From the human T2T-CHM13v2.0 reference genome, Homo sapiens: a DNA stretch of 64,000 nt. The notes beneath the pieces are model-generated. The model was not told the origin of the DNA. It ran no database searches and was given only the letters and a program-made list of their open reading frames with translations. The position numbers and the translations under genes are program-made. The stretch spans positions 37,344,001 through 37,408,000 of the forward strand of contig CP086569.2 in assembly GCA_009914755.4 (NCBI GenBank), read 5' to 3'. Of this stretch, positions 25,854-27,977 are shown one piece after another; within the stretch, counting starts at the first letter, position 1; each line of letters begins with the position of its first letter.

Positions 25854-27977
25854 ATCCATATTTTCTAAATGAAAAAAAATTTCAAAGGTACTCTGCTTGG
25901 TACAATAATCAAATGTATAAACTGAGGAATAAAACATAACCATGAAACCTACTTATAACTGCATATGGAAAATACAGAGGATAATTTTTTAAATAACATA
26001 TTTTGAAAGCCTTAACTAGTAATTTGCAGAGTTGGCATTTGAAAGGCCAGTATGAATATACCTTCAAAGCAGCAACACAGGTTCCCCATGAGAAAAAGCA
26101 AACTCAGGGAAAATAAAACCACAAAGGTTCAATCTCTTCTGACCTTTGAAAGACACAGCACAGACAGTGGTCCTTAGGACGAAGAGCAGGAGACCCCTAT
26201 TTCCGTCACCATGGCGATAGGGCATAAACATTGCTGGGTGAGGGCACAATCCACATTGTGAGGTCCAACTGCTGCCAGGAAGACAGGAGTGCTTTTACAT
26301 AGACCGAAAGGTCATTGAAGGCTCAGAGTTTTGTTTCAAGAACTGAATCCCAAGCCCACACGTTATTAGGCTGCGCTTCTTAAAACAAGTTATGAGATGG
26401 GAAAAAGGGCACCCACAAACATACGTATACATTATGTATATAATAATATACAGTATCATATATATAATATATATAACCTATGTATAATATTGTTTTACAT
26501 CCTGCATCTTATATTATGTATATTGTATAAAATATAATTATTGATAATATATAAAATTTATATTTATACAATATGACATATAGTATATATTATAATTTAT
26601 GACATATATAATATATGTTATATATCATATATAGAATATATTATACGGTTAATATACGTATTAAATATAAATTATACATTATATATATTATATATAATAT
26701 TTCTGTTATATATAATACCCATTATGCATAATATATATATTATGTGTATGTTATATATAGTATAAAACAACATATAATAATATATAATTGTATATATAAT
26801 ATGCGACATATAATATATATTATATTTTATGACATATGTTATAAATATTATATATTATATATAATACGTTGTATGTATAATACCTATATTAAATATATAT
26901 TATATGACTATGTTATTAATTACATGTCACATATGTTATATATTATATATTTTACATAGAATATACCGGTTACATACAATATATACTATGTTACCTATAA
27001 TGTATAATATATTACATGTAAAATAAAGAATGCAATATATTATGTATAATTTATAATATACAATATGTGGAATGTGATATATATAACATATAATATATGA
27101 TATATGATATACAGTATATGATATATAACATACAATATATGATACATAATATATATGGTATACAATATATATTTTATGATATGTATTCTATATGTTTTAT
27201 ATTCTGTTATATATAACTATTTGAAATTATATATAACTGTATAATATTTTATGTAAATATGTAATATTATATATAACTATGTAATATATTATATATAACT
27301 ATATATTATGTTATATATACTTTTATAACATAATTTACATAAAATATCATAATATAATATATATTATATTATTTCATATTACATAATATATATTACATAT
27401 CACCCAATATAAGTAACATACATAATATTATAATATAGATTATATTCTGTTATATTAAATATCATATATATCATGTATCATATATTCTATAATATATATT
27501 ATACATTATATAATATGTATGTTGTCTATTATGTGATATATATAACTATATATATAATTATATTATTATACATATAACTAGATAAACATGTAATTCTACA
27601 TATTTTCATTTATAATATATAGAATTATATAATCATATATAATTATTTATATTCTATAAAAAATTATAGCTTTATATAAATTATAATATATAAAAATTAT
27701 AATATGTATTACAAATATATATATTGTATATCATATATGATATAGTACCTTTGTTATATATGATAATACATATAAATGTGTATTATGTTATCTATAATTA
27801 TATAATTTCATATATAAGATGTATAATATTTATTATATATTACATATGTTATGTAATATATATAGTATATATAAGATGACACAGGATAAATATTATATAC
27901 TATGACATATAAAATATATGAGGTTATATGTTACATATAAGACATAGCACATAACATGTAATATATATCATATATAA
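25560..27977. repeat. Satellite monomer #11 (2418 bp), an A/B mosaic: the Alu and complex segment are A-type, the AT-rich block is B-type.
   Basis: A markers run through 26213 (ccctatttccgtc). B-type AT-block markers start at 26501 (cttatattatgtatattg..ataattattg). Confidence 0.85.

What the first reader, a model, noticed from the sequence alone, without database searches (positions are those of the whole stretch)
26355..26505. Recombination or gene-conversion breakpoint inside monomer #11 (A-type front, B-type AT block)
Monomer 11 carries the A-type markers gattattagtag (25741), ttttctaaatg (25861) and ccctatttccgtc (26201). Its AT-rich block, however, has the B-type markers cttatattatgtatattg, ataattattg and tataaaatttatattta, and is nearly identical to monomer 10's AT block. 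The 71-codon + ORFs at 24326 and 26744 are identical. The switch lies between the last A marker and the first B marker, about 26355-26505. This is direct evidence of unequal crossover or conversion at sub-monomer resolution.
Basis: seen in the sequence. Interest (0 to 1): 0.5.

Follow-up and report, generated by a model that had tools for sequence, protein, structure and literature searches.

The report
Hybrid repeat unit in human DYZ2 satellite
One 2.4-kb unit of a human DYZ2 (HSat1B) satellite array is a clean front-A/back-B hybrid left by an out-of-register recombination between neighbouring repeat units, which is a real but ordinary footprint of how such satellites are already known to evolve.

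Summary
The window holds 26.4 tandem units of about 2,420 bp. Each unit has an antisense, 5'-truncated, roughly 20%-diverged Alu, a mid-GC part and a >85% AT block. This fits the published description of human DYZ2/HSat1B.

Units 9, 12 and 14 (type A) and 10, 13 and 15 (type B) alternate as a young 4,838-bp dimer and differ at 43 fixed sites. Unit 11 (25457-27874) carries the A allele at all 13 sites up to 26354 and the B allele at all 30 sites from 26511. That is a single switch, with chance probability about 5e-11.

Unit 11 carries derived alleles of both lineages, so it is a recombinant and not an ancestral intermediate. Its front matches unit 9 with 1 difference. Its AT block matches unit 10 with 1 difference. 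The switch lies in 156 bp that are identical in A and B (26355-26510), at the junction of the mid-GC part and the AT block.

The order A B A/B A B A B shifts the dimer register by one unit. That shift is the signature of a single unequal exchange and not of gene conversion.

Gains and losses of one or two DYZ2 units are seen de novo about once per Y transmission in a published pedigree. The finding is therefore correct, tidy and unsurprising. The two identical 71-codon ORFs are chance ORFs in the AT block.

The parts
1..64000 (+). Tandem array of 26.4 units of about 2,420 bp (13 of the 25 complete units are exactly 2,420 bp). Identified as human DYZ2/HSat1B satellite.
   Evidence: Unit starts; unit lengths and pairwise differences; alternating GC profile. 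The published description of DYZ2 matches. The window consensus is about 99% identical to human-contaminant contigs L001-L031.
20619..23038 (+). Unit 9, type A. It is the closest relative of the front of unit 11.
   Evidence: unit 11 differs from unit 9 at only 1 site (column 2, private to unit 9) over columns 1-1050.
23039..25456 (+). Unit 10, type B. It is the closest relative of the AT block of unit 11.
   Evidence: units 10 and 11 alone share T at column 1345 and C at column 1994. They show 1 difference over columns 1051-2421.
25457..26354 (+). A-type segment of hybrid unit 11 (tail of the AT block, Alu, most of the mid-GC part).
   Evidence: 13 of 13 diagnostic sites read A, including the 3 A-derived alleles.
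25560..25851 (-). 5'-truncated, diverged Alu fragment inside unit 11.
   Evidence: A local alignment to an AluY consensus written from memory covers positions 13-289 at 78% identity. There is also a sub-threshold Rfam match to the Alu-derived mir-1268.
26355..26510 (.). Breakpoint interval: 156 bp identical in A, B and unit 11. It spans the junction between the mid-GC part and the AT block, including ACATACG at 26421-26427 and a degenerate 21-bp mini-repeat from 26447.
   Evidence: Last A site 26354 and first B site 26511; alignment block. It is one of the four longest uninterrupted A/B identity tracts: 214, 156, 156, 151 bp.
26511..27874 (+). B-type segment of hybrid unit 11 (AT-rich block).
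   Evidence: 30 of 30 diagnostic sites read B, including all 19 B-derived alleles. There is one private change at 27709.
27875..37550 (+). Units 12 (A), 13 (B), 14 (A) and 15 (B): the regular 4,838-bp dimers that follow the hybrid.
   Evidence: A copies 6-9 differences apart, B copies 2-7; derived-allele counts per unit.
24326..24541 (+). 71-codon chance ORF in the AT block of unit 10.
   Evidence: GTG start, Y/I-rich low-complexity translation.
26744..26959 (+). Identical 71-codon chance ORF in the AT block of unit 11.
   Evidence: The identity simply reflects the near-identical B-type AT blocks.

Best explanation
The window is a stretch of the human DYZ2 (HSat1B) satellite. Within it, a dimer of two diverged units (A-B, 4,838 bp) was recently amplified into units 9-15.

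Unit 11 is the junction product of one out-of-register homologous exchange, in which an A unit paired with a B unit one unit out of step. Candidate mechanisms are unequal sister-chromatid exchange or, equivalently for the sequence outcome, intrachromatid deletion, single-strand annealing or template switching.

The exchange resolved inside the 156-bp tract (26355-26510) where A and B are identical. This fused an A front to a B back and changed the array length by one unit.

Shown: the clean single switch, the presence of derived alleles of both parents, the register shift, and the near-identity of the two halves to units 9 and 10.

Inferred: the molecular pathway, whether the event was a gain or a loss of a unit, and its age. 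There are two differences between unit 11 and its best-fit parents. At the published Yq12 rate of 3.86e-7 per bp per generation this gives about 1,000 generations. At 0.5e-9 per bp per year it gives about 0.8 Myr. Both figures are very rough.
For: - Single A-to-B switch at 43 fixed sites, p about 5e-11; triplet test p = 2e-13.
- Derived alleles of both lineages are present in the matching halves and absent from the other halves. Polarity was confirmed on 31 independent copies.
- The best two-parent fit (unit 9 | unit 10) leaves 2 mismatches, against 18 for the best single parent.
- The unit order A B A/B A B A B is the only odd-shift product that one homologous exchange can give in an ABAB array.
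- The B-to-A transition after unit 11 is the ordinary dimer junction seen after units 10 and 13.
- Unit 11 has one private change at 27709, so it has existed as a separate copy.
- Literature: Yq12 patterns are consistent with unequal exchange, and sister-chromatid exchanges are seen there. De novo structural variants of 2,416-4,839 bp, each removing or adding whole DYZ2 units, occur about once per Y transmission (PMC12240836).
Against: - The pathway cannot be read from the product. Gain and loss both give an A/B hybrid.
- Under the gain model, the front of unit 11 should be a copy of the front of unit 12. Unit 12 has four private changes there. This is not significant by my own hand calculation (binomial, about p = 0.1) but it is slightly uneven.
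- No reads are available to rule out an assembly chimera.
- The chromosome of origin (Yq12 or an acrocentric short arm) was not determined.
Confidence: 0.8

Rival explanations
1. Gene conversion without a change in copy number. Unit 11 was once a whole A or a whole B unit, and a tract of at least 780 bp (front) or at least 1,330 bp (back) was copied into it from a unit of the other type.
For: Interlocus gene conversion is reported as frequent in DYZ1/DYZ2: 29% of de novo Yq12 SNVs have identical matches elsewhere. Other units in the window show patchy allele sharing, namely units 17, 21 and 5.
Against: The state before conversion would be A B A A B or A B B A B, which already has a one-unit register shift. 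Homologous exchange cannot create that shift without making a hybrid, so at least two events are needed where one suffices. The B tract is not flanked by recipient sequence on both sides. It runs to the natural B-to-A junction.
Confidence: 0.1
2. Assembly chimera. The assembler joined reads from an A unit and a B unit across the 156-bp identical tract, creating or dropping a unit that does not exist in the genome.
For: Satellite arrays with 99.7-99.9% identical 4.8-kb dimers are hard to assemble. No read data are available here.
Against: Unit 11 has a private substitution at 27709 found in no other unit of the window. It also lacks the private changes of units 9, 10 and 12, so it is not a copy-paste of neighbouring assembled sequence. 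Long reads of 15 kb or more span several units with 46-55 A/B differences each, so a one-unit error would be unusual (inference). Real events of this size are common in this satellite.
Confidence: 0.07
3. Unit 11 is not recombinant. It is an ancestral intermediate, or it acquired the A-like and B-like states by independent mutation.
For: None beyond the logical possibility. 10 of the 13 front sites are places where A keeps the ancestral allele.
Against: Unit 11 carries the 3 A-derived alleles in front and all 19 B-derived alleles behind. An ancestor of both types would carry neither set (polarity confirmed). Twenty-two parallel mutations are not credible.
Confidence: 0.01

Closest known systems
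Human DYZ2 / HSat1B satellite (Yq12 and acrocentric short arms)
   Same: - Unit length of 2,420 bp.
- Three-part make-up: an ancient 5'-truncated Alu about 20% diverged, a >85% AT block and a GC-richer part.
- ACATACG at the junction of the GC-richer part and the AT block.
- Units at least 98% identical to the consensus.
- Present as a contaminant in bacterial assemblies.

   Different: Nothing found that differs. The local A-B dimer periodicity of 4,838 bp over units 9-15, with a more distant relative in units 16-17, is a local feature. The papers I read do not describe it, but they do report de novo changes of two units (4,839 bp).
Hybrid monomers in alpha-satellite higher-order repeats (for example a 2/3 hybrid from an out-of-register deletion; Uralsky et al. 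2019, PMC6447721)
   Same: The logic is the same. Distinct monomer types occur in a fixed order, and one unit has the first part of one type and the second part of the next, with the repeat register changed by one monomer.
   Different: The unit here is 2.4 kb, not 171 bp. The higher-order repeat is only a local, young dimer. The satellite is not centromeric.
S5 monomer of the S3-S4-S5 trimer in the alpha satellite of Pithecia and Chiropotes
   Same: A dimeric repeat gave rise by unequal crossing-over to a third, hybrid unit that shares the sequence of both dimer partners (review PMC7767330).
   Different: There the hybrid-containing trimer was itself amplified into a new repeat. Here the hybrid occurs once in the window.
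De novo DYZ2 structural variants in the CEPH 1463 pedigree (Porubsky et al. 2025, PMC12240836)
   Same: Insertions or deletions of 2,416-4,839 bp, each affecting whole DYZ2 units, arise about once per Y transmission. A one-unit (2,418-bp) register change is the event inferred here.
   Different: Those events were observed directly between generations. Here only the fixed footprint is seen, and its breakpoint is resolved to 156 bp.

Membership tests
DYZ2 / HSat1B satellite | Tandem unit of about 2.4 kb (published consensus 2,420 bp) | tested here: met
   26 unit starts spaced 2,411-2,420 bp apart; 13 of the 25 complete units are exactly 2,420 bp.
DYZ2 / HSat1B satellite | Composite unit: ancient, 5'-truncated Alu (about 20% diverged), plus a >85% AT region, plus a GC-richer region | tested here: met
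   Alu on the minus strand at 25560-25851, AluY positions 13-289, 78% identity (the consensus was written from memory). GC alternates between 13-14% and 37-40%. The sequence was read.
DYZ2 / HSat1B satellite | ACATACG heptamer at the junction of the HSATI part and the AT-rich part | tested here: met
   ACATACG is present at this junction in 25 of the 26 aligned units (unit 24 reads AAATACG), for example at 26421-26427.
DYZ2 / HSat1B satellite | High sequence identity to independent human DYZ2 copies | tested here: inconclusive
   The tools hold no labelled DYZ2 reference. 31 contigs from bacterial assemblies and metagenomes match the window consensus, most at about 98-99.7%. This is the contamination pattern that the T2T-Y paper attributes to HSat1B. 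The support is strong but indirect.
DYZ2 / HSat1B satellite | Location in Yq12 (DYZ2 proper) rather than an acrocentric HSat1B array | not testable with these tools
   No human genome assembly is available. The window contains no flanking DYZ1/HSat3 or unique sequence.
Hybrid unit from out-of-register (unequal) homologous exchange | Two distinguishable parental unit types in regular alternation | tested here: met
   A = units 9, 12, 14 and B = units 10, 13, 15, with 43 fixed differences.
Hybrid unit from out-of-register (unequal) homologous exchange | A single clean switch of parental markers, with derived alleles of both parents | tested here: met
   13 A then 30 B; 3 of 3 A-derived alleles in front and 19 of 19 B-derived behind; p = 2e-13.
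Hybrid unit from out-of-register (unequal) homologous exchange | Repeat register shifted by one unit at the hybrid | tested here: met
   The order is A B A/B A B A B for units 9-15.
Hybrid unit from out-of-register (unequal) homologous exchange | Existence of the pre-event allele or the reciprocal product in other haplotypes | not testable with these tools
   This needs other human assemblies of the same array.
Gene-conversion tract (non-crossover) | Copy number and register unchanged; donor-type tract flanked on both sides by recipient-type sequence of the same unit | tested here: not met
   The register is shifted by one unit. The B tract runs from 26511 to the natural B-to-A junction at the end of the unit.

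The most novel reading that the evidence does not exclude
The junction between the mid-GC (HSATI) part and the AT-rich block of DYZ2 may be a preferred site for out-of-register exchange. The two cleanest mosaics in the window both switch there. Unit 11 switches at columns 900-1055. Unit 21 switches at columns 991-1071 by best fit, or 543-1071 by the conservative reading. If this holds, unit gain and loss in this satellite would be driven by a local hotspot (for example breakage at the edge of the AT block) and would not be spread according to the length of identical tracts. The overlap of two intervals has a chance probability of about 0.1-0.3, so the evidence here is weak.
Probability: 0.1. 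Interest if true: 0.35.

Novelty: already known. Interest (0 to 1): 0.15.

Why it matters
It matters little beyond being a clean worked example. It shows at 156-bp resolution the footprint of the unit gain or loss events that pedigree sequencing already observes in DYZ2 about once per Y transmission. It also shows that a local two-unit periodicity can arise and be broken within about 17 kb.

If many such junctions were collected across complete Y and acrocentric assemblies, they could serve two purposes. They could test whether exchange points follow the length of identical tracts or cluster at a hotspot. They could also act as rare structural markers for tracing array lineages. This single instance changes no current view of satellite evolution.

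Tried and rejected
- RNA families. Rfam at gathering thresholds over 20000-30000 found nothing. A permissive scan of unit 11 gave only a sub-threshold match to the Alu-derived mir-1268 (33.9 bits against a cut-off of 83). There is no structured RNA gene.
- ORFs as genes. The two identical 71-codon ORFs start with GTG and are Y/I-rich. They lie in the >85% AT block of a satellite and are chance ORFs.
- Ancestral-intermediate reading of unit 11. Rejected by the derived-allele analysis.
- A/B alleles in outside copies. None of the 31 outside contigs carries the A-specific or B-specific derived alleles. These contigs are consensus-like short-read collapses, so this only shows that A and B are not the majority forms.
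- Special structure in the breakpoint tract. No notable inverted repeat lies inside 26355-26510; only the usual imperfect AT palindromes lie downstream.
- All-triplet ranking. The ranking at the end was badly designed. It simply rediscovered close relatives and is not used.
- Gain versus loss of a unit. The private variants do not decide this.
- Chromosome of origin. It could not be determined.

Full report
**What the window is.** Tandem Repeats Finder and the composition profile show a regular alternation about every 2.42 kb between stretches of 37-40% GC and stretches of 13-14% GC along all 64 kb.
- A 120-bp anchor from 25457 finds 26 unit starts, from 1274 to 61729, spaced 2,411-2,420 bp apart.
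- Reading unit 11 shows a poly-T followed by an Alu in antisense orientation. A local alignment to an AluY consensus that I wrote from memory places it at 25560-25851, covering Alu positions 13-289 at 78% identity.
- A mid-GC part of about 570 bp follows, and then an AT block of about 1.45 kb.
- Published descriptions fit this. [quoted passage not shown] Hallast et al. describe a 2,420-bp consensus with a 5'-truncated Alu, an HSATI part and the heptamer ACATACG at the HSATI/AT junction. The heptamer sits at 26421-26427 and at the same place in 25 of the 26 aligned units.
- A 28-mer from the mid-GC part finds 12 contigs in bacterial genome assemblies and 19 metagenome contigs. Most are about 98-99.7% identical to the window consensus. 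This is the HSat1B contamination that the T2T-Y paper reports.
- I conclude that the window is human DYZ2/HSat1B. Whether it comes from Yq12 or from an acrocentric short arm cannot be settled with these tools.

**The observation.** In the MAFFT alignment of the units (2,421 columns), units 9, 12 and 14 differ from each other at 6-9 sites and units 10, 13 and 15 at 2-7 sites. The two groups differ at 46-55 sites. The other units of the window differ from each other by up to about 80 sites, most pairs by 40-80.
- Forty-three columns are fixed within each group and differ between them. Unit 11 has the A state at all 13 such columns from 25576 to 26354 and the B state at all 30 from 26511 to 27843.
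- Given 13 A and 30 B calls, the chance of at most one switch is 5.5e-11.
- A triplet test with units 9 and 10 as parents gives 54 informative sites split 18:1 | 0:35, Fisher p = 2e-13. The one exception is a private change of unit 9.
- The 71-codon ORFs at 24326 and 26744 are indeed identical. They are Y/I-rich chance ORFs in the AT block.
Two of the three 'A markers' also occur in unit 16, and one of them also in unit 18.

**Recombinant or intermediate?** I polarised the 43 sites with the 18 other complete units of the window. I polarised them again with the 31 outside copies, which all show one and the same ancestral pattern, apart from a polymorphism at column 1058 and a third base at column 121.
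- In front, 3 sites are A-derived and 10 are B-derived. Unit 11 has all 3 A-derived and none of the 10 B-derived.
- Behind, 11 sites are A-derived and 19 are B-derived. Unit 11 has none of the 11 A-derived and all 19 B-derived.
- A common ancestor of A and B would carry neither set, so unit 11 is a true recombinant of the two lineages.
- Its front is closest to unit 9 (1 difference). It shares C at column 572 with units 9 and 12.
- Its back is closest to unit 10 (1 difference). It shares T at column 1345 and C at column 1994 with unit 10 only.
- Among all 25 complete units, unit 11 gains most from a two-parent model: 18 mismatches to the best single parent against 2 to unit 9 | unit 10.

**The breakpoint.** The switch lies in 26355-26510. 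These 156 bp are identical in A, B and unit 11.
- The tract covers the end of the mid-GC part, ACATACG and the first AT-rich bases, including a degenerate 21-bp mini-repeat.
- It is one of the four longest uninterrupted A/B identity tracts: 214, 156, 156 and 151 bp. Homologous exchange would be expected in such a tract, although a long tract is also the likeliest place for any randomly placed breakpoint.
- If the private C of unit 10 at column 980 predates the event, the interval narrows to 26436-26510. That cannot be shown.
- No special inverted repeat lies in the tract.

**Mechanism.** The units run A B A/B A B A B (units 9-15). Units 9-15 form a young amplified 4,838-bp dimer whose register is shifted by one unit exactly at the hybrid.
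- In an ABAB array, pairing one unit out of step puts an A opposite a B. A single exchange then yields an A/B (or B/A) hybrid and an array one unit longer or shorter. This is what is seen.
- Conversion keeps the register. It would therefore need a prior A-A or B-B neighbourhood, which homologous exchange cannot make without itself producing a hybrid. Conversion thus needs at least two events.
- The B tract also runs into the ordinary B-to-A junction and is not bounded by recipient sequence.
- I therefore favour one out-of-register homologous event: unequal sister-chromatid exchange or, with the same product, intrachromatid deletion, single-strand annealing or template switching.
- Gain and loss cannot be told apart, because both give an A/B hybrid. 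The private variants are compatible with a copy of unit 10's back joined to unit 12's front. They are equally compatible with a deletion inside a former dimer that was sister to units 9-10.
- The age is uncertain. There are 2 differences from the best-fit parents in 2,418 bp. This gives about 1,000 generations at the published Yq12 rate of 3.86e-7 per bp per generation (my arithmetic). It gives about 0.8 Myr at 0.5e-9 per bp per year. The Poisson error is wide in both cases.
- An assembly chimera cannot be excluded without reads. It is made less likely by the private change at 27709 and by the absence from unit 11 of the private changes of units 9, 10 and 12.

**Comparison with what is known.** The process is textbook for satellites and is documented for this very satellite.
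- The T2T-Y paper finds Yq12 patterns consistent with unequal exchange, and sister-chromatid exchanges in Yq12 in about 15% of Strand-seq libraries.
- A four-generation pedigree shows de novo structural variants of 2,416-4,839 bp, each affecting whole DYZ2 units, about once per Y transmission. It also shows frequent interlocus conversion.
- The same kind of junction unit is known as a hybrid monomer in alpha-satellite higher-order repeats.
- It is also known as the S5 monomer that arose from an S3-S4 dimer in some New World monkeys.
- The finding is therefore a correct and clean instance of a known process, not a new kind of thing.

**Context inside the window.** Mosaicism is common here.
- Unit 21 shares three derived alleles in front with unit 22 only, and 19 or more behind with unit 18.
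- Unit 17 shares 11 of the 19 B-derived alleles in columns 1084-1828 (plus column 2377), and then a different set with units 18 and 21.
- Unit 16 matches type A over columns 1-744 with one difference, but not beyond.
- Units 11 and 21 both switch near the edge of the AT block. This is suggestive of a hotspot but is not significant with two events.

**Verdict.** The underlying system is the known human DYZ2/HSat1B satellite. Interest is low.

Noticed in passing
window 49638-52053 (unit 21), switch at about 50627-50707: Unit 21 is a second mosaic. Its front differs from unit 22 at only 1 site in columns 1-1071 and shares derived alleles 39, 126 and 542 with unit 22 only. Its AT block shares 19 or more derived alleles with unit 18. 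The triplet test gives 12:0 | 7:49, p = 7e-9. The best-fit switch falls at the same place in the unit as in unit 11. Only 3 of the front sites are truly informative.
   Followed up: partly
window 37551-39970 (unit 16), about 37960-38295: Unit 16 matches type A over columns 1-744 (1 difference from unit 14; it shares A-derived alleles at columns 288 and 410), but its remaining part is unrelated to A. The right edge of the young A-B block therefore lies inside unit 16. Alternatively, units 16-17 are an older relative of the A-B dimer.
   Followed up: partly
window 39971-42384 (unit 17): Unit 17 carries 11 of the 19 B-derived alleles, all within columns 1084-1828 plus column 2377, and none of the 10 B-derived front alleles. 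Its tail (columns 2124-2193) shares derived alleles with units 18 and 21. This suggests two age layers in the B lineage and another mosaic. Unit 5 also has 8 B-derived back alleles.
   Followed up: partly
window 42385-52053 (units 18-21): The similarity pattern is not periodic. Units 19 and 20 are close (15 differences). Units 18 and 21 are close (22 differences) although they are three units apart. This points to further local duplications or exchanges.
   Followed up: no
L005 5897-6920 (NZ_HF570958.1, Nostocoides japonicum scaffold): A 1-kb piece of DYZ2 (97.8% identical to the window consensus, about 40% GC) sits between two runs of 100 N inside a 5.16-Mb scaffold of an actinobacterium with about 75% GC. 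It is a human contaminant contig scaffolded into a bacterial genome. The other 11 genome hits are small stand-alone contigs.
   Followed up: partly
alignment column 121 (for example window 25576): Most outside DYZ2 copies that cover this column carry a base that is neither the G of most window units nor the T of type B. This may be an array-specific fixed variant of the window.
   Followed up: no
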